This document shows positions 1,892 to 11,801 of a DNA stretch of 64,000 nt, one piece after another. Within the stretch, counting starts at the first letter, position 1; each line of letters opens with the position of its first letter. The notes under the pieces are model-generated. The model worked only from the letters and a program-made list of their open reading frames with translations. It was not told where the DNA came from and made no database searches. Source of the DNA: Escherichia phage alia. Position numbers and translations under genes: made by a program. The stretch lies in the sequence record NC_052655.1, one strand, 5' to 3'.

Positions 1892-3007
1892 GTGGCACAT
1901 ACATATCTAGCTGACGTAGACTTTTCGGGTAAAGCTACGGAAGATTCTTGCGGAGCACACATTGCTTACACCTTCGATTTTCAAGGTGGTGCTGCTTCTG
2001 GCTTTAATACCCCTCTACTTTTTAAATCTGGTGACAACCCAGACATTAGCTTCACTAAATTAGAAGCTCTAGAAAAAATGGGTGAAGACGTTACTGAATT
2101 ACGTAAATCATATATGAACCAACTTATGGGATCATTATCTGATGCCGTTCGTGAAAAATACGAATCTGGTTGGGATTGGGTTTATGTAGTCGATGCCGAT
2201 TTTGATAATGGCATTGTTATTTTCTGTTCTGACTATGGAATGTTCTCTACTGATTTTACCCTTAATGGACTTCTTGTTGAAGTTGGTGATGTTGCAAAAC
2301 CAGTAGTACAAACAACGGACTATGAAGTAGTAGACGGTGATGTTTTAGTTTCCCTGGATTTCTTTGACAACTTGATTGATGATGCTCTAGGTGATTTAGT
2401 TAAGAGCGCAATTAAGTTTGATCACGTAAAAGATTATTTAGTAAAAGCTCACGAAGCTCGTACTAATAAAGACTCTGTGATTGCAGAGGATAATCCAGCA
2501 GATCTTGAATCTGCAAACACAACCGATATAAATAAAGGAGATACCCCTTTGGAAAATATTAACAAAGAAGAATTCCTGAAATCTGCTGAGGTGCAAGACC
2601 TTATTAAAGCACAGATTGCAGAAGCGGTAGAAAAAGCTGCTGCTGAAGCTCGTGCAGAGGCAGAAGCTAAAGCACAGGAAGAAATCAACAAAGCTAAGGC
2701 AGAAGCCGAAGAACTTCGTAAAGCAGAGATTGCTCGTATCGAAGAAGACTATACCAATGTAATTAAGTCTTATGGCTATGTTGAAGAAGACAAAGTTGAA
2801 GCACTTGTTAAATACCTAGTAGATAACAAAGAAATTGCTGAAACTGTTGTTACTGCATTTGAAAAAGCTCGCGAAGAAGTTGAAACAGTTAAGAAAGAAT
2901 TTGGCAAAGAAGTAGGTGTTGATGTTGAAAACAAAGAACCTGTTGCTAAATCTGCTTCTGAACTGATTCGTCAAAAAGCTGCTGAACTTAAAAAAGCCCA
3001 GAAATAA
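1892..3007 (+). CDS. putative scaffolding protein
   Basis: GTG start with AAGGA 6-7 nt upstream. C-terminal third is Ala/Glu/Lys-rich with heptad-like charge pattern (AEAVEKAAAEARAEAEAKAQEE...). Position between portal and capsid. Confidence 0.5.
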   Translation: MAHTYLADVDFSGKATEDSCGAHIAYTFDFQGGAASGFNTPLLFKSGDNPDISFTKLEALEKMGEDVTELRKSYMNQLMGSLSDAVREKYESGWDWVYVVDADFDNGIVIFCSDYGMFSTDFTLNGLLVEVGDVAKPVVQTTDYEVVDGDVLVSLDFFDNLIDDALGDLVKSAIKFDHVKDYLVKAHEARTNKDSVIAEDNPADLESANTTDINKGDTPLENINKEEFLKSAEVQDLIKAQIAEAVEKAAAEARAEAEAKAQEEINKAKAEAEELRKAEIARIEEDYTNVIKSYGYVEEDKVEALVKYLVDNKEIAETVVTAFEKAREEVETVKKEFGKEVGVDVENKEPVAKSASELIRQKAAELKKAQK

Positions 3008-3025
3008 TCTAAGGAGATTTAATTA

Positions 3026-3418
3026 ATGGCAACTGGAATTTCTTTATCAAACTACCGCCAGGAATTTGGACACCTTGTTCTGGGTGGAGTATTTAGTTCT
3101 GACCTAGGTCACTGTGTTCGTGAAGTGAACCTGGTTAAAACTGCAACCATGAAAATTGGTTCTGTACTGAAAGCTGACAACACAGAAGCTGCTTCTGCTG
3201 GTGAAGCTGTTAAAGTTCTGCTGTGGACTGACGCACTGTTCGGGATCGATGATGTTGCAGTAGGTGACACTTTCACCGCAGTTGTTGGTGTACGTGACCT
3301 GACTCTCAACCGTTATGCAGTTTACTACAAGAGTGGTGATCTGATTGATGACGCTGGCGTTGCAGCACTGGAAACTCACGATCTGAAACTGACTGAAAAA
3401 GTTGTTTTCACTTCTTAA
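3026..3418 (+). CDS. putative head decoration or accessory capsid protein
   Basis: 130 aa ORF with AAGGAGA SD, immediately upstream of the major capsid gene (lambda D-E-like arrangement). Assignment is positional. Confidence 0.4.
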   Translation: MATGISLSNYRQEFGHLVLGGVFSSDLGHCVREVNLVKTATMKIGSVLKADNTEAASAGEAVKVLLWTDALFGIDDVAVGDTFTAVVGVRDLTLNRYAVYYKSGDLIDDAGVAALETHDLKLTEKVVFTS

Positions 3419-3439
3419 TTTTTAATAGGAGATTTATAC

Positions 3440-4441
3440 ATGCCAGCTATTATCTTAGATCAGGTTGTTGACTTTAGCCCAATGATTGAGCTACAAGAAA
3501 CTCCTGATACACTTATCGCAAGTCTGAACCTGTTTGATGTTCAGTATCATGCTACCACTGCTATCGAAATTGGCAGACAGAAAAATGCAGATGGTCTGAT
3601 CCCAGCACGTGAACGTGGTGGTGAGCGTAACTTCCTGACTATGGACGCTCCAAGCGTTAAAGTCTTCCGTATTCCGTTCTTCCCTCTGGATAAGAACATT
3701 AAGGCACAGGATATTCAATCCTTCCGTAGCTTCGCTATGGGTGGCATCAATGATAACCTGCGTACCGAAGCGGAAGTTGTTAACCGCTATATGACTCAAA
3801 TCCTGCGGGATGTTGCAAAAACTAAAGAAAAAATCTTTGCAGAAGCAGTAATGGGTCGTGCATACAATGGTGTTGGTGGTGCAGCTAACTCTGCATACAA
3901 CTGGTACACCGAATGGGGTGCTACCCAGAAATCAGTATCTGTAGACTTCGCTTCTACTACTGTTTCTCCGGCTGCTACCATTGAGAAAGAAGCTCGTGCA
4001 TACATCATCGATCAGAAACAAGACGGTTCTACCGCTACTCGTATTGTTGCTCTGTGCTCTCGTGAGTTCTTTGCTTCTCTGGTTAACTCTCCGTTTGTTC
4101 GCCAGGCTTATCAATACTTCCAAGGTACTCCGAACCTTCTGCGTGACCGCCTAAGCGGTAATATGGACGTTCAGGTATTCGAATGGAATGGTGTAACCTA
4201 CATCGAAGATATCCACGGTAACATTCCTGCTGGTGAAGCGTTTGTTCTGCCAATGGGTATTCCAGATATGTTCCAGGCGCACTATGCTCCAGCGGATACT
4301 CCAGAACTGGCTAACACTGTTGCTCGTGATCTGTATACCTTTATGGTATCTGAACACCGCACTGTACAGCTACAGTCTGAATTCTCCCTGCTGGCGGTTA
4401 ATACCCGTCCAGAACTGGTAGTTAAACTGACTACTGCTTAA
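3440..4441 (+). CDS. major capsid protein
   Basis: 333 aa ORF with AGGAGA SD, followed by a strong intrinsic terminator. Position after portal/scaffold/decoration-like genes; size fits lambda E-type capsid proteins. Confidence 0.7.
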   Translation: MPAIILDQVVDFSPMIELQETPDTLIASLNLFDVQYHATTAIEIGRQKNADGLIPARERGGERNFLTMDAPSVKVFRIPFFPLDKNIKAQDIQSFRSFAMGGINDNLRTEAEVVNRYMTQILRDVAKTKEKIFAEAVMGRAYNGVGGAANSAYNWYTEWGATQKSVSVDFASTTVSPAATIEKEARAYIIDQKQDGSTATRIVALCSREFFASLVNSPFVRQAYQYFQGTPNLLRDRLSGNMDVQVFEWNGVTYIEDIHGNIPAGEAFVLPMGIPDMFQAHYAPADTPELANTVARDLYTFMVSEHRTVQLQSEFSLLAVNTRPELVVKLTTA

Positions 4442-7056: not shown

Positions 7057-8463
7057 ATGGCAACTTTTCGTGATAAGGTAGTTTCCGTAACCCTTACCTA
7101 CGGTGCTACTTCAATTAGTGAAACACAGTTTGATATCCCTCTAATTCTTACAGGGCATAACGTTACTGGCAATCTTGTAGATTATTTCACTTCTTCAGAC
7201 GCACTTCTGCAAGCAGGTTTTGGCACTGCCGATCCAGCTTATAAAATGGCAAAACTACTATTTGACGGTCTGTTCGCACCAGAACAAGTTATCGTCGGTA
7301 AGCGTGATGTTTCTAAAACAACTCTAACTCCAGTAGTTGAAGATAGTGCAACTTACGTTATCACTATTAAAGCAAATTCAAAAAGCAAGGACTTCAAGTT
7401 TGTTGCCGATGATACTGCAACTGCTCAAGAGATTGTTGTTGGTTTAACAGAAATGATCAACGCAGACGTAGTGTATAAAGAATTTTTCACTGTGTCAAAC
7501 GATGGTAGTGTTATCACTGTAACCCCAGTTGCAGGTAAATACGCTACTATGGATAGTTCAGGATTCACAACTAAAGTAGAATATGCAAATGATATCTTAG
7601 AAGATATTGCTAAAATTGCAGACTATGAAAACAGTTGGTTCTGGTTACTATCTGATTCTCACGCAGAACAAGATATTATCGATCTAGCAGGTTATGTAGA
7701 AGAGCACGATAAAGTGTATTTCTTCTCTACCTCGCAACAAGGTGTTCTAACTAAAGAAGAAGATAACATTCTAGAACGCTTAGGTGATATGGGCTACAAT
7801 AACACTTGTATGGCATTGTGGATGACTAACGCTGATACAGTGTTCCCAGAGGCTGCTGTAGTTGGTTCTATCTGCTCTGCAACACCAGGTACTACTACCC
7901 TACATGGTAAAACCCTTGTTGGTATCGAGATTGAAAAACTTGGTCAGACAGCAGAAAACTTTATCGTTCAACAGAATGGTAATATTTACCGTAAAGAACA
8001 CGGTGTTCTGTTCTACCGTGATGGCTTCATGGTTAGTGGTTTCTATGTTGACTATGTGGTACACGCTCTGTGGTTCAAAGCTCGCGTAGAAGAATCTCTG
8101 TTCGCTCTATTCAAACAGCAATCTATGCTTGGTAGTGGTGTTAGAGCAACTTCTGCTGGTCTTGCTTTGATTCGTCAGGCTGTTACTGCAAACCCAATCC
8201 AAGTAGGTATTAACAATGGTTCTATTGCCAATGAGGTAGTAACTTCAGAGGAAACAGGACTTCTGGTAAGCCTTAAACCTACTATCTATATCCCATCTCG
8301 TGCAGATATGACTGATGCTCAAATCAATGCACGTTTGGTTGATGGTATGGTTATTGAATACGTATATGCTGGATTCTTCCACTATGTTAAAGTGCAGGTA
8401 AACGTTCTAACGAACCGCACTGCAAATAGCCAGAATTCCAATAGCTCTACTGTATCTTCATAA
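7057..8463 (+). CDS. tail sheath protein
   Basis: 468 aa ORF with CAGGAG SD, immediately upstream of a ~160 aa tube-like gene, the frameshifted chaperone pair and the tape measure gene (P2/Mu-like contractile-tail order). Confidence 0.7.
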   Translation: MATFRDKVVSVTLTYGATSISETQFDIPLILTGHNVTGNLVDYFTSSDALLQAGFGTADPAYKMAKLLFDGLFAPEQVIVGKRDVSKTTLTPVVEDSATYVITIKANSKSKDFKFVADDTATAQEIVVGLTEMINADVVYKEFFTVSNDGSVITVTPVAGKYATMDSSGFTTKVEYANDILEDIAKIADYENSWFWLLSDSHAEQDIIDLAGYVEEHDKVYFFSTSQQGVLTKEEDNILERLGDMGYNNTCMALWMTNADTVFPEAAVVGSICSATPGTTTLHGKTLVGIEIEKLGQTAENFIVQQNGNIYRKEHGVLFYRDGFMVSGFYVDYVVHALWFKARVEESLFALFKQQSMLGSGVRATSAGLALIRQAVTANPIQVGINNGSIANEVVTSEETGLLVSLKPTIYIPSRADMTDAQINARLVDGMVIEYVYAGFFHYVKVQVNVLTNRTANSQNSNSSTVSS

Positions 8464-8489: not shown

Positions 8490-8521
8490 TATATGAAAAG
8501 TAGTATAAAAGGAGATCCACT

Positions 8522-9001
8522 TTGGATAAAATGCTTACTGGCGTAATGGCCTATGATCCTTCTCAAGTAATCCTGTCTTTGGGTGGTTGGGAACCTTGGG
8601 GTTTCGCCGCAGATACCAAAATTGTTATTAACAAAACTAACGATATCATCAACCCATATTCAGGTACTGATGGTGACGTTTCCTTGGCGCTTAGTCGTAA
8701 CCGTTTAGGTACGCTAACAATGTCACTGCAACGTACTTCCCCAGCAAACGAAGTTCTTGCTGCTTATGCACAAACGATGTATTCTACTCGTCAAGTAGCA
8801 TTTAGCGTATATCTAGAAGACCCTCGCGGATATTATATCAGCACAATTGGTTGGATTCAAAGTCAACCGGACGACACTATTGGTGAAACTATTCAAGAAA
8901 ACCAATGGGTAATTGGTCTTAAAGATGCAAGCCTACTTCGTTCTACTGTAGGTGTTGGTGTTAACGCACTTAACTCTATTAGTGCTCTAACTATTCAGTA
9001 A
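8522..9001 (+). CDS. tail tube protein
   Basis: 159 aa ORF; TTG at 8522 is 7 nt after AAGGAGA. Sits between sheath and chaperone genes and is followed by a strong terminator. Confidence 0.7.
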   Translation: MDKMLTGVMAYDPSQVILSLGGWEPWGFAADTKIVINKTNDIINPYSGTDGDVSLALSRNRLGTLTMSLQRTSPANEVLAAYAQTMYSTRQVAFSVYLEDPRGYYISTIGWIQSQPDDTIGETIQENQWVIGLKDASLLRSTVGVGVNALNSISALTIQ

Positions 9002-9005
9002 CAAA

Positions 9006-9030
9006 AAGGGCAGAAATGCCCTTTATTTTT
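9006..9030 (+). terminator. intrinsic terminator after tube gene
   Basis: AAGGGCA-GAAA-TGCCCTT stem followed by TATTTTT. Confidence 0.7.
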
Positions 9031-9044
9031 AAAGAGAGGAAATA

Positions 9045-9527
9045 ATGGAACAACAAAAAGATAATACTATTGCAAAATTTGCTCGTCCAGAAGTAATGGT
9101 TGAAATTGATCTGGATGAAGGACGCAGTGTAAAATTTAGAGTTCTCAAGTGGAGTCCAACTAAAGTTTTTGAAAGGATTCCAGAACTAGGTAGTGTACTA
9201 GCTGTTCCTATGACAATGTATAATACTGCTCTTATGTCAGCAGACGAAGATCTAGAAGCTCGTATTGCTATGGCACTGATCCAATTATTCAGTGGTCTGG
9301 AAGAAAAAAACTTAGCCGCATTCTTACGTAAAATTTTAGATGAAGTTTACACAGAAGCAGGTCATAGTGTTTCCGATAATTTTGATGAATTGTTTTTTGC
9401 TCACCCAGAATTAGTTGTTGACTTAGCTGCAAAAGTTCTTGAGGTGAACTATGCCCCTTTTTTCAAACGAGGTTTCGGAAAACTGTTGACCCAATTTCAA
9501 GGAATAGAGACTCTAGCGAAGAGTTAA
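9045..9527 (+). CDS. tail assembly chaperone (G-like, short product)
   Basis: 160 aa ORF with AGAGAGGAAA SD, directly upstream of the tape measure gene; its 3' end overlaps a second open frame. Confidence 0.65.
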   Translation: MEQQKDNTIAKFARPEVMVEIDLDEGRSVKFRVLKWSPTKVFERIPELGSVLAVPMTMYNTALMSADEDLEARIAMALIQLFSGLEEKNLAAFLRKILDEVYTEAGHSVSDNFDELFFAHPELVVDLAAKVLEVNYAPFFKRGFGKLLTQFQGIETLAKS

Positions 9528-9802
9528 GTCCGGCAATTAAATCAGCAATTGAAATTGCCTCACAAACCCTTAGCTTGACATGGTATGAAGTAATTCTTTG
9601 TAAGGTAATTAAGAATACCTCCGAAACCTTGTCCTCGTTAGATAATTACGGTGTAGATTATCTACTTAAAATTTATGAATATTTAACATTTGAAGACTAT
9701 GTACAAGATCTTCACGTTAAAGATGCGGATATTAAACGTGGTCAACAGAGAACAATAAGAGAACTGGATACGGCTATGAAAAAATTAATTCCAGATTCAT
9801 AA
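9045..9802 (+). CDS. tail assembly chaperone, predicted -1 frameshift fusion product (GT-like)
   Basis: The -1 frame is open from 9449 to 9802 and overlaps the end of the 9045..9527 ORF. Slippery heptamer T_TTT_TTC at 9458-9464 is in the zero frame. Predicted junction peptide ...YAPFFQTRFRK... Confidence 0.5.
9458..9464 (+). other. candidate -1 ribosomal frameshift slippery site (U UUU UUC)
   Basis: X_XXY_YYZ heptamer with zero-frame codons TTT (9459-9461) and TTC (9462-9464); both Phe tRNAs can re-pair on UUU UUU after a -1 slip. Confidence 0.5.
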
Positions 9803-9821
9803 GTAATACGGAGGATTACCC

Positions 9822-11801
9822 TTGTTAGAAATTAACACTTCCAAGATTAAGAATACAGTAACGTTTACTGTAGATAAAGACAGTTTAAAAAATACTAAAG
9901 ACGCAATTAAAAACCTTAAAACTTTTACAGAATCTATTGAACCATCTTTAAATATGACTAAAATGCGTCGTCAGTTTAAAAGTATGGAAGAGTATGCTAA
10001 AAGAATAAGGCAGCAAATGTCAGGTCTTGGCGGCGGTAATCCTCCACCAATCCCACCAACCGGAGGTTCAAGTGGTGGTGGAAAAGGAGGAAGTGGTAGA
10101 GGTGGTTCTGGATCTTCTGGAGGACGTAAGACACCGGAGGAAAGAGCCGCAGAAGCCGCCGCTAAACGTGCAGCACTTGCTAATATGAAGCAAGATGATT
10201 TTAGTTTTAAAGCTATGCCTTTTACAAAAGCAGACAGCAGAATTCTAGAAAAATCTAAAAAGATTGTAGAAGAAACTGTTGAACTTTATCGTAAAGGTGT
10301 GATTACTAGCCAACAAATGAACAATACTTTGGCTAGACAGTTAGAAGAACTACGCAGATCTCATAGAGAGAAGAATGCACAACTTCTTGATGAAGAGAGA
10401 GCTAGACGTAGAATTGCCCGTCTGCAAGAAGCAGAAGATAAAAGAAGACAGCGTGTTCGAGAAAGAGAAAGAAAGGAGTTCGAACGTCAGCAAAGGAGAG
10501 AAAAAGAAGCAAGACAGCGAGATAGACAACGTAAGCTATCTGGTGTAGGTAATGCTGCTATTGCTCTTAACCCTGCTATGTTTGGTGCTGCTCTTTTAGG
10601 TGCTGGTTTATATCAAGGTATAAGCAAAATAGCTGAAAGTATCACAACTGCGGCAGAACGTATTAATATGGTTAGTAAAGGTGGTCAGAACGTACAGGTA
10701 AACCCTAATGCAATTTTAACAATGCGTACTTGGGGTGAGATGAACGGTGTAGACTCTGCCAGCATTATTAAAGCAATTGACAATATTAAAGACGTTCGTG
10801 AACGTTTAGGTAATACTGTACTCCACTCTGAATTTGATGAAAAATCAGGTAAATGGAAAGGTGGAGATAGTGGTATTAATGAAATCATGAACCAATTTGG
10901 TTGGTCGAAAGAAGATGTTGCTAAATTCCAGAACAGACCTTTAGACTTTGTTCAAGCACTTGTTAATGAAGGTCAAAAAAGAGGAATGAACTCCGCGCAA
11001 ATTGGTCGTTTGATGGAAAACCTTGGTGATGACTTAATGCACTACCAACGTATGTTTTTGGATAACGGTAAAGAGTACATGAAAGTCTTGGATATGTTAA
11101 AAAATTCAGGAGCAACTCTTAACGATGAAAACATCAAAGCAGCACAAGATTTTGTTAAGCTAAGAGCACAAATTAGTGCAGCAGGAGAAGGTTTTACCAA
11201 TAACTTACTTATAGGATTTATGGATGGTTTAAAATCTGCACCAGATTTTGCAGAGAATATGAAAACTTTCCAAGAAGCTGCTCGTGGTCTTGGTGAAATG
11301 TCTGGTAGTATTGTAAGTAGCCTTGCAAAAATTGCGAAATATTTCCTTGATTTTTCAAATAAGGTTGGGCCAAAAAACAATACTAAAGAAGCTGTAAGAG
11401 ATTATTATAATGGCACGCAGTATGGGTACGATGCACAGGTTGGTGGTAATCCTTGGGCTTATTGGCCTATTGGAAGAGATCAACATAAACCTGAAAATCA
11501 ACCTTTAGGTGACTTTGATAGTAGTTTCTTAACTAGTGCCTTAAACCCAAGTGCTTCTAGTATCGGTTACAATAGACCTGATTTAACAGCATCTATGCTA
11601 ACACCACGCCAAGGTGTTCCAGTACCATTAAGTGTAGAGAATACGGTTGTTATCCCAGACAACGCATTCCAGATTAATGTTATTCCAGATGGCTATGGTT
11701 TTAGTAATTATCTAGATGCGACAATGAATACCAGTTTTAGTAACTTCTCACAAGGTTTAACTCTTCAGTTAAGCAGTGGACAATCTTCTACTGGTGGTTA
11801 A
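9822..11801 (+). CDS. tail tape measure protein
   Basis: 659 aa ORF; TTG start 7 nt after GGAGGA. Gly-rich N-terminal tract, highly charged Arg/Glu coiled-coil segment (RRRIARLQEAEDKRRQRVRERERKEFERQQRREKEARQRDRQRK), hydrophobic central segment. Follows the chaperone pair. Confidence 0.8.
   Translation: MLEINTSKIKNTVTFTVDKDSLKNTKDAIKNLKTFTESIEPSLNMTKMRRQFKSMEEYAKRIRQQMSGLGGGNPPPIPPTGGSSGGGKGGSGRGGSGSSGGRKTPEERAAEAAAKRAALANMKQDDFSFKAMPFTKADSRILEKSKKIVEETVELYRKGVITSQQMNNTLARQLEELRRSHREKNAQLLDEERARRRIARLQEAEDKRRQRVRERERKEFERQQRREKEARQRDRQRKLSGVGNAAIALNPAMFGAALLGAGLYQGISKIAESITTAAERINMVSKGGQNVQVNPNAILTMRTWGEMNGVDSASIIKAIDNIKDVRERLGNTVLHSEFDEKSGKWKGGDSGINEIMNQFGWSKEDVAKFQNRPLDFVQALVNEGQKRGMNSAQIGRLMENLGDDLMHYQRMFLDNGKEYMKVLDMLKNSGATLNDENIKAAQDFVKLRAQISAAGEGFTNNLLIGFMDGLKSAPDFAENMKTFQEAARGLGEMSGSIVSSLAKIAKYFLDFSNKVGPKNNTKEAVRDYYNGTQYGYDAQVGGNPWAYWPIGRDQHKPENQPLGDFDSSFLTSALNPSASSIGYNRPDLTASMLTPRQGVPVPLSVENTVVIPDNAFQINVIPDGYGFSNYLDATMNTSFSNFSQGLTLQLSSGQSSTGG

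What the first reader, a model, noticed from the sequence alone, without database searches (positions are those of the whole stretch)
9449..9802. Predicted programmed -1 ribosomal frameshift in the tail assembly chaperone gene
The chaperone ORF (9045-9527) overlaps a -1 frame that is open from 9449 to 9802, and the overlap contains the slippery heptamer T_TTT_TTC at 9458-9464 in the correct zero-frame register. The arrangement between tube and tape-measure genes matches the conserved G/GT-type tail chaperone frameshift. Predicted products are about 160 aa and about 253 aa with junction ...YAPFFQTRFRK... The track ORF at 9575-9802 is therefore more likely the C-terminal extension than a separate gene.
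Basis: partly seen in the sequence, partly recalled or inferred. Interest (0 to 1): 0.55.

Follow-up and report, generated by a model that had tools for sequence, protein, structure and literature searches.

The report
Frameshifted tail chaperone of phi92-like phage
In this phi92-like E. coli phage, the tail assembly chaperone gene almost certainly makes a second, longer protein when ribosomes slip back one base at CCCTTTTTTC, so the small "hypothetical" gene after it is really the end of that longer protein; this is a well-known phage device that has not yet been annotated in this phage group.

Summary
The window is a phi92-like Justusliebigvirus. The chaperone ORF 9045-9527 (Pfam Phage_TAC_15) lies between the tube and tape-measure genes. 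It overlaps a -1 frame that is open from 9443 to 9802, not from 9449. T_TTT_TTC (9458-9464) is in register, and a second in-register heptamer, C_CCT_TTT (9455-9461), gives the same product. The products are 160 aa and 252 aa, with junction YAPFF|QTRFRK.

About 45 related loci, down to roughly 27-30% identity, keep a -1 ORF of 107-136 aa that opens upstream of an in-register canonical heptamer: TTTTTTC in most, CCCTTTT in KLEP7 and AAATTTT in a Vibrio phage. The stretch 9527-9574, upstream of the annotated TTG start, evolves as -1-frame coding sequence. That TTG has no Shine-Dalgarno sequence and is start-capable in only 3 of 10 aligned sequences (the window and 2 of 9 relatives).

The site is homologous to the frameshift already annotated in Citrobacter phage Moogle and to the one proposed in 2025 for Vandenendeviridae and Andersonviridae. 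No conserved downstream RNA structure was found. An SD-like GAGGT lies 12 nt upstream.

Verdict: a real, ordinary G/GT-type -1 frameshift. It is a new, unannotated member of a known kind and has not been tested experimentally.

The parts
7057..8463 (+). Tail sheath gene (phi92 gp130). Context only.
   Evidence: PF11863 7.7e-22 and phrog_205 tail sheath 5.6e-104; annotated as tail sheath in NC_023693.
8522..9001 (+). Tail tube / virion structural protein gene (phi92 gp131), immediately upstream of the chaperone.
   Evidence: PF11681 KPP10_Orf10 and phrog_280; called 'tail tube protein' or 'potential tail tube' in related records.
9005..9034 (+). Terminator-like hairpin (AAAGGGCA-GAAA-TGCCCTTT) plus a T-rich tail, between the tube and chaperone genes. 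It may lower chaperone and tape-measure transcript levels relative to sheath and tube.
   Evidence: Consensus scan. The Paula record annotates terminators under the 8500-9900 match. Function is inferred only.
9045..9527 (+). Zero-frame chaperone ORF, the short product TAC-N of 160 aa (phi92 gp132). It has a strong RBS (AGAGAGGAAATA ATG).
   Evidence: PF21822 Phage_TAC_15 at 80.8 bits (cut-off 22), E = 1.6e-22; phrog_3840 tail assembly chaperone 4.4e-54.
9441..9445 (+). SD-like GAGGT, 12 nt upstream of T_TTT_TTC. Possible 5' stimulator of the -1 shift, as in dnaX.
   Evidence: It uses the rare Glu codon GAG (19% usage in this phage). A GAGG or GGAG core is present in 15 of 18 aligned relatives and absent in the Certrevirus sequences. 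Moogle has GGAGG at the same spacing. Sharma 2014 (PMC4066793) searched for stimulatory SD-like sequences 6-17 nt upstream. Its role here is inferred.
9455..9461 (+). First in-register slippery heptamer, C_CCT_TTT. It gives the same fusion protein.
   Evidence: Present in all Stephanstirmvirinae-like loci and the only heptamer in phage KLEP7. H_HH.U_UU.Y is a high-efficiency class in E. coli (PMC4066793).
9458..9464 (+). Main slippery heptamer, T_TTT_TTC. tRNA-Phe in the P site moves UUU to UUU, and tRNA-Phe in the A site moves UUC to UUU.
   Evidence: All 7 columns are invariant in an 18-sequence alignment whose mean column identity is 60%. Present in register in 30 of 30 IMG/VR loci and in the 11 enterobacterial GenBank relatives examined, including A5-4, and in Moogle.
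9471..9475 (+). Invariant GGTTT downstream of the slip site. It encodes G-F in frame 0 and R-F in frame -1. Significance is unresolved: either a dual-coding constraint or an RNA element.
   Evidence: Invariant columns. Its distance from the heptamer varies (6, 9 and 12 nt), which argues against a spacing-dependent RNA stimulator.
9464..9802 (+). -1-frame extension (112 codons plus TAA) translated after the slip. It consists of a variable linker of about 20 residues followed by a conserved helical C-terminal domain. The full long product TAC-NC is join(9045..9464, 9464..9802), 252 aa.
   Evidence: Codon-position test. AF2 model: residues 1-19 disordered, then three helices, at low confidence (pLDDT 59.8). 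The C-terminal part matches phrog_16039 and phrog_10409, both 'unknown function'.
9575..9802 (+). The ORF annotated as a separate gene (phi92 gp133, 75 aa, TTG start). Judged not to be an independent gene but the 3' two-thirds of the extension.
   Evidence: No SD upstream (GCCTCACAAACCCTTAGC-TTG). The aligned codon is TTG in only 3 of 10 sequences (the window and 2 of 9 relatives); the others have CTT, TTA, TTC, TTT or CTG. The ORF is left unannotated in ESCO5, V18 and phi1_175008. There are six different called starts among 16 database homologues.
9822..11801 (+). Tape measure protein gene (phi92 gp134). It starts 19 nt after the stop of the extension.
   Evidence: phrog_16051 tail length tape measure protein, 1327 bits; annotation.

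Best explanation
This is a lambda G/GT-type programmed -1 ribosomal frameshift in the tail assembly chaperone gene of a phi92-like myovirus.

Most ribosomes translate 9045-9527 and release the 160-aa chaperone (TAC-N). A minority slip while tRNA-Phe occupies the P and A sites on C_CCU_UUU_UUC (9455-9464). Both tRNAs re-pair one base upstream. The ribosome then reads the -1 frame from CAA at 9464 to TAA at 9800-9802 and makes a 252-aa protein (TAC-NC) that has the same N-terminal 140 residues plus a 112-residue extension. The slip may be helped by an SD-like GAGGT 12 nt upstream that pairs with 16S rRNA. The ORF annotated at 9575-9802 (phi92 gp133) is the distal part of that extension, not a separate gene.

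By analogy with lambda gpG/gpGT, the shared N-domain coats the tape measure protein (9822-11801) and the extension recruits the tube protein (8522-9001). A fixed low ratio of long to short form would then nucleate tube polymerisation around the tape measure. Neither product is expected in virions.

Shown here: the anatomy, the conservation of the signal, the coding status of the extension upstream of any start codon, and homology to an annotated frameshifted chaperone.

Inferred: that slippage actually occurs, its efficiency, the role of the SD-like element, and the binding partners.
For: Anatomy: (frames, two in-register heptamers, 252-aa fusion). (PF21822 Phage_TAC_15 at 1.6e-22; sheath-tube-TAC-TMP gene order).

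Conservation: all 9 non-phi92 enterobacterial GenBank relatives (Phapecoctavirus, phi1_175008, Vequintavirus, Seunavirus, Certrevirus, Avunavirus) and 30 of 30 IMG/VR loci at 100-29% identity keep T_TTT_TTC in register, a -1 ORF of 108-136 aa that opens upstream of it and ends just before the tape measure gene, and a +1 frame that reads on for at most about 20 codons past the chaperone stop (10 in phiTE and PBES02). In the alignment, all 7 heptamer columns are invariant against a mean column identity of 60%. Distant relatives carry other canonical heptamers at or within 3 codons of the same position: C_CCT_TTT in Pseudaeromonas phage KLEP7 and A_AAT_TTT in Vibrio phage PWH3a-P1.

Open frame: synonymous resampling gives P(-1 frame open across the overlap) of 0.005-0.2 per lineage, yet it is open in 14 of 14 lineages.

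Coding test: substitutions at -1-frame codon positions 1/2/3 are 322/267/493 in 9527-9574, which lies upstream of the annotated start. This is the same pattern as 1330/965/1989 in 9575-9799.

No independent start: there is no ATG, GTG or TTG in the -1 frame between 9443 and 9574. The TTG at 9575 lacks an SD and is start-capable in 3 of 10 aligned sequences. Callers choose six different starts or annotate nothing.

Homology to a known case: Moogle's annotated joined 'tape measure chaperone' has GGAGG-13 nt-TTTTTTC in the homologous codons (LEANFGSFF against LEVNYAPFF), belongs to PF21822 (5.3e-19), and aligns with the predicted fusion across the junction (29% identity, E = 2e-6).

Literature: U_UU.U_UU.C and C_CC.U_UU.U belong to the most efficient heptamer class in E. 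coli (PMC4066793). A conserved -1 PRF with a GTTTTT motif was proposed for the sister clades Vandenendeviridae and Andersonviridae (PMC12846349). The lambda model is described in PMC5009743.
Against: There is no direct protein evidence: no proteomic or western data were found for this clade.

No conserved downstream stimulatory structure was found. The MFE z-score is -0.88, and the consensus energies are -4.3 and -2.2 kcal/mol with no covariation. No Rfam frameshift element matched.

The SD-like element is absent in the Certrevirus sequences.

No natural in-frame fused homologue and no annotated fusion appeared among 45 database hits, all of which are about 160 aa.

A heptamer in the overlap has about 12% probability by chance alone.

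The IMG/VR loci were retrieved with a peptide pattern lying just upstream of the slip site. That set is therefore biased toward a conserved context, though not toward the heptamer itself.
Confidence: 0.9

Rival explanations
1. The downstream ORF is an independent small gene. It would be translated from the TTG at 9575 or from another internal or non-canonical start such as ATT, possibly by termination-reinitiation after the chaperone stop. The overlap and heptamer would then be incidental.
For: This is how phi92 gp133 and most relatives are annotated. The protein collection holds it as separate 64-84 aa ORFs. The -1 frame between 9494 and 9560 contains ATT codons that could in principle initiate; this comes from reading the sequence.
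Against: The TTG at 9575 has no SD and is replaced by non-start codons in 7 of 10 aligned sequences. Called starts fall at six different alignment columns. Three records annotate no gene there at all. The region upstream of every candidate start (9527-9574) evolves as -1-frame coding sequence. The -1 frame is open back to the heptamer in 14 of 14 lineages against P = 0.005-0.2 each. The heptamer's synonymous positions are invariant.
Confidence: 0.04
2. The same long protein is made by transcriptional slippage. RNA polymerase would add one extra U in the T6 run (9458-9463), giving an mRNA subpopulation in which the two frames are fused.
For: A one-base insertion in the T run would give exactly the same protein (...PFFQTR...); this follows from the sequence. 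Homopolymer runs are known slippage sites (PMC5009743, PMC4066793).
Against: The run is only 6 T, whereas, from general knowledge rather than anything tested here, efficient slippage by E. coli RNA polymerase usually needs longer runs. KLEP7 has a T5 run and its heptamer is CCCTTTT. The Vibrio phage has AAATTTT. Both are canonical tandem-slippage heptamers in the correct register but poor transcriptional slippage sites. Strict conservation of the register, and of the base preceding the run, is expected for ribosomal slippage and not for polymerase slippage.
Confidence: 0.04
3. The overlap is a non-functional relic or coincidence, and the extension is not translated at any useful level.
For: An in-register heptamer in a 28-codon overlap has P of about 0.12 by chance. 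No stimulatory structure was found. The AF2 model of the extension has low confidence.
Against: The extension is conserved at the protein level across subfamilies, with 21 invariant columns among close homologues and recognisable motifs (SLxW[YF]D/E, SETL, YL) down to Vibrio, KLEP7 and Moogle. It also shows a third-position substitution excess and a maintained open frame.
Confidence: 0.01

Closest known systems
Bacteriophage lambda gpG/gpGT tail assembly chaperone frameshift (Levin et al. 1993; Xu, Hendrix & Duda 2004, 2013, 2014; summarised in PMC5009743)
   Same: The gene sits between the major tail/tube gene and the tape measure gene. It has a short zero-frame product and a -1-frame C-terminal extension made at a canonical X_XXY_YYZ heptamer near the 3' end. 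The extension ORF lacks its own start. No strong stimulatory structure is required. The logic (inferred here) is that the N-domain binds the tape measure and the extension binds the tube protein at a fixed low ratio.
   Different: The heptamer differs (G_GGA_AAG in lambda, from general knowledge, against C_CCU_UUU_UUC here). There is no detectable sequence similarity, and the Pfam family is different (PF21822 here). The host phage is a large contractile-tailed myovirus. The ratio and binding partners are untested here.
[quoted passage not shown]
   Same: Same Pfam family PF21822 (5.3e-19). The same T_TTT_TTC heptamer lies in homologous codons (LEANFGSFF against LEVNYAPFF). An SD-like GGAGG sits at the same 13-nt spacing. 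The fusion proteins align across the junction (29% identity, E = 2e-6).
   Different: Moogle's frameshift is annotated as a joined CDS, whereas none of the phi92-like or rV5-like records examined is. Moogle's products are smaller (133 and 212 aa). The GGTTT / 'RF' motif after the slip site is absent in Moogle.
Conserved -1 PRF with 'GTTTTT' motif proposed for Vandenendeviridae (Pakpunavirus Adele) and Andersonviridae chaperone loci (PMC12846349, Dec 2025)
   Same: The argument and architecture are the same: a downstream 'hypothetical protein' ORF is really the C-terminal part of TAC-NC, the -1 frame is uninterrupted in all genomes, and there is a conserved poly-T slip motif near the 3' end of TAC-N. 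That paper notes these clades are related to Vequintavirinae and Stephanstirmvirinae.
   Different: That paper analysed Vandenendeviridae (56 alleles) and Andersonviridae (231 genomes), not Stephanstirmvirinae or Vequintavirinae. In phi92-like phages the base before the T run is C (CCT, Pro) rather than G (TGT or AGT), which creates a second overlapping heptamer.
E. coli dnaX -1 frameshift (A_AAA_AAG with an upstream SD-like stimulator and a downstream hairpin)
   Same: A canonical heptamer is preceded by an SD-like sequence about 10-13 nt upstream. Here, GAGGT built on a rare GAG codon lies 12 nt upstream. The 6-17 nt search window comes from PMC4066793.
   Different: No downstream hairpin is present here. 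In dnaX the frameshift product is shorter, not longer (general knowledge). The SD-like element here is untested and is absent in the Certrevirus sequences.

Membership tests
G/GT-type tail assembly chaperone with programmed -1 frameshift (Xu, Hendrix & Duda 2004) | The gene pair is located between the major tail/tube gene and the tape measure gene, on the same strand. | tested here: met
   Tube 8522-9001, chaperone 9045-9527, extension to 9802, tape measure 9822-11801. The same order holds in all relatives.
G/GT-type tail assembly chaperone with programmed -1 frameshift (Xu, Hendrix & Duda 2004) | The downstream ORF is in the -1 frame, overlaps the 3' end of the chaperone ORF, and has no credible conserved initiation site of its own. 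| tested here: met
   An 85-nt overlap, with the -1 frame open from 9443 to 9802. There is no ATG, GTG or TTG before 9575. The TTG at 9575 has no SD and is conserved in 3 of 10 sequences.
G/GT-type tail assembly chaperone with programmed -1 frameshift (Xu, Hendrix & Duda 2004) | A canonical X_XXY_YYZ slippery heptamer lies in the zero-frame register inside the overlap. | tested here: met
   C_CCT_TTT at 9455 and T_TTT_TTC at 9458. Both belong to the efficient H_HH.U_UU.Y class in E. coli (PMC4066793).
G/GT-type tail assembly chaperone with programmed -1 frameshift (Xu, Hendrix & Duda 2004) | The heptamer, the overlap and the extension's coding capacity are conserved in divergent relatives. | tested here: met
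   About 45 loci from at least 14 lineages. Codon-position test. Resampling test.
G/GT-type tail assembly chaperone with programmed -1 frameshift (Xu, Hendrix & Duda 2004) | Two proteins sharing an N-terminus are actually produced at a fixed ratio, and the junction peptide is detectable. | not testable with these tools
   No proteomic data were found for phi92-like or rV5-like chaperones.
G/GT-type tail assembly chaperone with programmed -1 frameshift (Xu, Hendrix & Duda 2004) | Both products are required for tail assembly and are absent from mature virions. The N-domain binds the tape measure and the extension binds the tube protein. | not testable with these tools
   Inferred only from the lambda model (PMC5009743).
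Pfam PF21822 Phage_TAC_15 | The score against the family HMM is above the curated gathering threshold. | tested here: met
   80.8 bits against a cut-off of 22, E = 1.6e-22, residues 29-144. All 45 database homologues carry PF21822.
Structure-stimulated -1 PRF (downstream hairpin or pseudoknot, as in IS3 or dnaX) | A conserved stable RNA structure lies 5-9 nt downstream of the heptamer. | tested here: not met
   MFE z-score -0.88. RNAalifold consensus energies of -4.3 and -2.2 kcal/mol, with no compensatory support near the site. No Rfam match.
SD-stimulated -1 PRF (as in dnaX) | A conserved SD-like sequence lies 6-17 nt upstream of the heptamer. | tested here: inconclusive
   GAGGT at 9441-9445, with a 12-nt spacer, uses the rare GAG codon (19% usage). 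A GAGG or GGAG core is present in 15 of 18 sequences and in Moogle, but the Certrevirus sequences have GAAGT. It is also confounded by conservation of the zero-frame residues Glu-Val.

The most novel reading that the evidence does not exclude
Efficiency at this site may be set by an unusual, structure-independent combination of elements. These are two overlapping slippery heptamers (C_CCU_UUU_UUC) that give two chances to slip into the same product, an upstream SD-like GAGGT built on a rare codon, and the invariant GGTTT / -1-frame 'R-F-R' motif just downstream. That downstream motif could act as an mRNA or nascent-peptide modulator rather than merely as a dual-coding constraint. If this were true, the clade would offer a natural series (tandem against single heptamer, with and without the SD-like element) for dissecting how hairpin-less bacterial -1 frameshift sites tune their ratio.
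Probability: 0.1. Interest if true: 0.4.

Novelty: new member of a known kind. Interest (0 to 1): 0.2.

Why it matters
The main value is an annotation correction. In phi92, and in roughly 350 related Stephanstirmvirinae and Vequintavirinae genomes in GenBank, the ORF after the chaperone (phi92 gp133, rV5 gp050, PVP-SE1 gp58) is listed as an independent 'hypothetical protein' or is not annotated at all. In every relative examined here it fits better as the C-terminal extension of a frameshifted chaperone. The long form was not among the 45 homologues returned from the 5.8-billion-sequence protein collection.

These phages are candidates for therapy and biocontrol and are subjects of structural work on tails, so a correct parts list is useful. 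The result also extends a homologous slip site (poly-T after conserved L-E-x-N-[YF]-x-x-F-F codons) across four large myovirus clades, which supports the idea that it is ancient.

It does not change our understanding of frameshifting or of tail assembly.

Tried and rejected
1. Downstream stimulatory RNA structure. A single-sequence fold of 9458-9560 gave z = -0.88. RNAalifold was run on 8 Stephanstirmvirinae-like and 9 Vequintavirinae sequences. Only a weak helix that pairs the slippery run itself was found, with no covariation, so this was rejected.

2. Rfam scan of 9300-9900. The only match was a sub-threshold CRISPR-DR35 hit on the minus strand (25 bits against a threshold of 35), which is a chance hit.

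3. Search for an annotated or natural in-frame fusion. All 45 homologues of the fusion are about 160 aa. No joined CDS appeared in any of the 14 related phi92-like, rV5-like and more distant records inspected.

4. Structure of the extension. The extension alone, with 17 sequences, gave pLDDT 59.8 and pTM 0.27. That is too poor for a fold search, so none was run. A sequence search of the PDB found nothing (best E = 0.17).

5. +1 frameshift. The +1 frame is closed: in the window it is a 7-codon stop-to-stop stretch around the chaperone stop, and in relatives it reads on for at most about 20 codons past that stop. Rejected.

6. Other slip sites. A_AAA_AAC at 9305 is in register but lies upstream of the -1-frame stop at 9440, so it cannot reach the extension.

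7. GGTTT as a spacing-dependent stimulator. Its distance from the heptamer varies (6, 9 and 12 nt) and it is absent in Moogle, so this is judged unlikely.

8. Phage-encoded tRNA-Phe. No tRNA genes were found in the window.

9. Literature on this frameshift in phi92-like or rV5-like phages. Nothing was found.
Full report
IDENTITY OF THE WINDOW. Bases 8500-9900 are 99.9% identical to Escherichia phage VEcB and 99.5% identical to phi92 (genus Justusliebigvirus, subfamily Stephanstirmvirinae). In phi92's RefSeq record the region is annotated as follows: gp130 tail sheath, gp131 virion structural protein (tube), gp132 tail assembly chaperone, gp133 (no function), and gp134 tape measure protein. These correspond to window 7057-8463, 8522-9001, 9045-9527, 9575-9802 and 9822-11801. 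Family searches agree. The chaperone matches PF21822 Phage_TAC_15 (80.8 bits, E = 1.6e-22) and phrog_3840. The neighbours match sheath, tube and tape-measure families. The gp133 ORF matches only PHROGs of 'unknown function'.

THE OBSERVATION. I re-read the frames computationally.
- The chaperone ORF is 160 aa.
- The -1 frame has a TGA at 9440-9442 and is then open to TAA at 9800-9802. It therefore opens at 9443, not 9449.
- TTTTTTC lies at 9458-9464 with the zero-frame phasing T_TTT_TTC.
- A slip there gives a 252-aa protein with junction YAPFF|QTRFRK.
It overlaps the first, and a slip on either gives the identical protein.
- There is no ATG, GTG or TTG in the -1 frame before the TTG at 9575.
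- The +1 frame is closed after a few codons.

Taken alone, the heptamer is weak evidence. In-register heptamers occur at 4.4 per 1000 codons in this window, so the chance of at least one in a 28-codon overlap is about 0.12. However, of the 88 such heptamers in 62 ORFs, only these two are followed by a long open -1 frame. None of six other Phe-Phe dipeptides in the structural genes is encoded in slippery form.

COMPARATIVE TESTS. A tblastn search with the predicted fusion found 360 phage records. In nearly all of those listed (58 of 60), the match fell in two pieces, meaning two reading frames. I examined 11 GenBank loci (phi92, ESCO5, Klebsiella phi1_175008, V18, PVP-SE1, PBES02, phiTE, CR9, Av-05, EC152 and Vibrio PWH3a-P1). 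I also examined 30 IMG/VR loci spanning 100-29% identity and two further distant phages (KLEP7 and A5-4).
- Every enterobacterial locus keeps T_TTT_TTC in register, a -1 ORF of 108-136 aa that opens upstream of it and ends just before the tape measure gene, and a +1 frame that is closed within about 20 codons of the chaperone stop.
- In an 18-sequence DNA alignment with 60% mean column identity, all seven heptamer columns are invariant, including three synonymous positions.
- Two distant phages carry different canonical heptamers at or within 3 codons of the same position. These are C_CCT_TTT in KLEP7, where the T run is only 5, and A_AAT_TTT in the Vibrio phage. Exchange among canonical heptamers is what selection for tandem tRNA slippage predicts.
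- Resampling synonymous codons while holding each zero-frame protein fixed gives a probability of only 0.005-0.2 per lineage that the -1 frame stays open across the overlap. It is open in 14 of 14 lineages. The lineages are related, so the product of 10^-18 is only an upper bound on significance.

Caveat: the IMG/VR loci were retrieved with a peptide pattern lying immediately upstream of the slip site. The GenBank set was not.

IS THE DOWNSTREAM ORF A SEPARATE GENE? I made codon alignments of ten Stephanstirmvirinae-like sequences.
- The 48 nt between the chaperone stop and the annotated TTG (9527-9574) accumulate substitutions at -1-frame codon positions 1/2/3 as 322/267/493. The downstream ORF shows the same third-position excess (1330/965/1989). 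This 'intergenic' stretch is therefore translated in the -1 frame.
- Inside the overlap, the zero frame dominates the pattern, and the -1-frame peptide there is a variable linker.
- The codon aligned with TTG 9575 is TTG in only 3 of 10 sequences. The others have CTT, TTA, TTC, TTT or CTG. None has a Shine-Dalgarno sequence.
- Real genes nearby have strong ones: GAGAGGA before the chaperone and GGAGG before the tape measure.
- In the large protein collection, the extension appears only as 64-84 aa 'hypothetical' ORFs that start at six different alignment columns.
- Three GenBank records annotate nothing there at all.

Translation of the conserved region therefore has to enter from the chaperone frame, somewhere between 9443 and 9527. 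The only canonical slip sites in that interval are the two heptamers.

STIMULATORS. No downstream structure is supported. The MFE z-score is -0.88. Consensus folds in two clades have energies of -4.3 and -2.2 kcal/mol with no covariation near the site. No Rfam element matched. From general knowledge, this is not unusual for chaperone frameshifts: lambda G/GT works at a few percent without a known structure.

There is an SD-like GAGGT at 9441-9445, 12 nt upstream of T_TTT_TTC. It is built on the rare Glu codon GAG, which has 19% usage in this phage. A GAGG or GGAG core is present in 15 of 18 aligned relatives and, at identical spacing, in Moogle, but not in the Certrevirus sequences. Sharma et al. 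searched a 6-17 nt window for SD-like stimulators. They also place H_HH.U_UU.Y heptamers, a class that includes both heptamers here, among the most efficient in E. coli (PMC4066793). The role of the SD-like element remains an inference.

An invariant GGTTT lies just downstream (9471-9475). It encodes G-F in frame 0 and R-F in frame -1. It sits at variable distance from the heptamer in different clades and is missing in Moogle. I read it as a dual-coding constraint, but this is unresolved.

COMPARISON WITH KNOWN CASES. The architecture is that of the conserved tail-chaperone frameshift first shown for lambda G/GT. In that system the G part binds the tape measure, the T part binds the major tail protein, and the ratio is about 30:1 (PMC5009743).

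[quoted passage not shown] Its slip site reads GGAGG-13 nt-TTTTTTC in codons homologous to those here (LEANFGSFF against LEVNYAPFF). Its chaperone belongs to PF21822 (5.3e-19). Its fusion aligns with the predicted phi92 fusion across the junction (29% identity, E = 2e-6).

A December 2025 paper proposed the same conserved -1 PRF, with a 'GTTTTT' motif, for Vandenendeviridae and Andersonviridae. It noted that these clades are related to Vequintavirinae and Stephanstirmvirinae but did not analyse those two subfamilies (PMC12846349; taxonomy). I found no paper reporting the frameshift for phi92-like or rV5-like phages. I also found no joined CDS in the records inspected and no fused product among the protein-collection homologues.

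MECHANISM AND CONFIDENCE.
- Shown: the anatomy, the conservation of a canonical slip signal in register, the coding status of the extension upstream of any start codon, and homology to an annotated frameshifted chaperone.
- Inferred: that ribosomes actually slip, the efficiency, the contribution of the SD-like element and of the tandem heptamers, and the division of labour between the products (N-domain on the tape measure, extension recruiting the tube protein).

The extension is predicted, at low confidence (pLDDT 59.8), to be a disordered linker of about 20 residues followed by three helices. I give the -1 PRF explanation 0.9. The rivals are an independent small gene or reinitiation (0.04), transcriptional slippage on the T6 run (0.04; disfavoured by the T5/CCCTTTT and AAATTTT variants), and a non-functional overlap (0.01).

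VERDICT. This is an ordinary, well-understood kind of recoding signal in a clade where it has simply not been annotated. It is a new member of a known kind. It is useful as an annotation fix for phi92 gp132/gp133 and their many relatives, but it would not surprise a specialist.

Noticed in passing
window 9005-9034 (+): A terminator-like hairpin (8-bp stem AAAGGGCA/TGCCCTTT, loop GAAA, then ATTTTTAAAG) sits in the 43-nt gap between the tube gene and the chaperone gene. It could attenuate transcription into the chaperone and tape-measure genes relative to the abundant sheath and tube genes. The related phage Paula record annotates terminators under the 8500-9900 match.
   Followed up: partly
window about 8008-8100 (L001 1009-1101): The phi92 RefSeq record annotates a 'Hypothetical tRNA' inside the tail sheath coding sequence. 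ARAGORN finds no tRNA there or anywhere else in the 64-kb window, so this looks like an annotation artefact.
   Followed up: yes
GenBank MG065639, MG065645, MG065656, MG065689 and others: More than 20 records named 'Campylobacter phage' (host C. jejuni) match this region. Some are 99.6% identical to this E. coli phi92-like phage, and others match rV5-like phages. They are unannotated and probably mislabelled or come from contaminating coliphages.
   Followed up: no
window 9471-9475; -1-frame residues just after the junction: GGTTT is invariant across 18 sequences from two subfamilies. The -1 frame conserves a basic 'R-F-R/K' patch right after the slip, while frame 0 conserves 'G-F/L-G'. It is unclear whether this reflects dual coding only or a functional RNA or nascent-peptide element.
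   Followed up: partly
L007 (phiTE) 2224-3370: In Pectobacterium phage phiTE, an annotated terminator and two extra ORFs (phiTE_226 and phiTE_227; the latter is similar to a phage JSE protein) are inserted between the chaperone extension and the tape measure gene. This breaks the otherwise tight chaperone-tape-measure linkage.
   Followed up: no
L003 (V18) 2274-3674: The tape measure gene of Escherichia phage V18 is annotated as two overlapping CDSs (840 nt and 1500 nt, overlapping by 4 nt). This may be a sequencing frameshift or a genuine split.
   Followed up: no
L008 (Klebsiella phage vB_Kpn_K18PH07C1): The whole sheath-tube-chaperone region of this record is annotated with short minus-strand 'pseudo' ORFs, opposite to the real genes. 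This is an apparent strand or annotation error in the deposited record.
   Followed up: no
window 9477-9511 (-): A sub-threshold Rfam match to CRISPR-DR35 (25.1 bits against a gathering score of 35, E = 0.012). It is a single copy inside coding sequence and is considered a chance hit.
   Followed up: yes
window 10020-10120 and 10330-10560 (within the tape measure gene 9822-11801): The tape measure protein has a Gly/Ser/Pro-rich low-complexity stretch (…GGGNPPPIPPTGGSSGGGKGGSGRGGSGSSGG…) followed by a highly charged Arg/Glu/Lys-rich stretch that probably forms a coiled coil. No Pfam family matches the protein.
   Followed up: no
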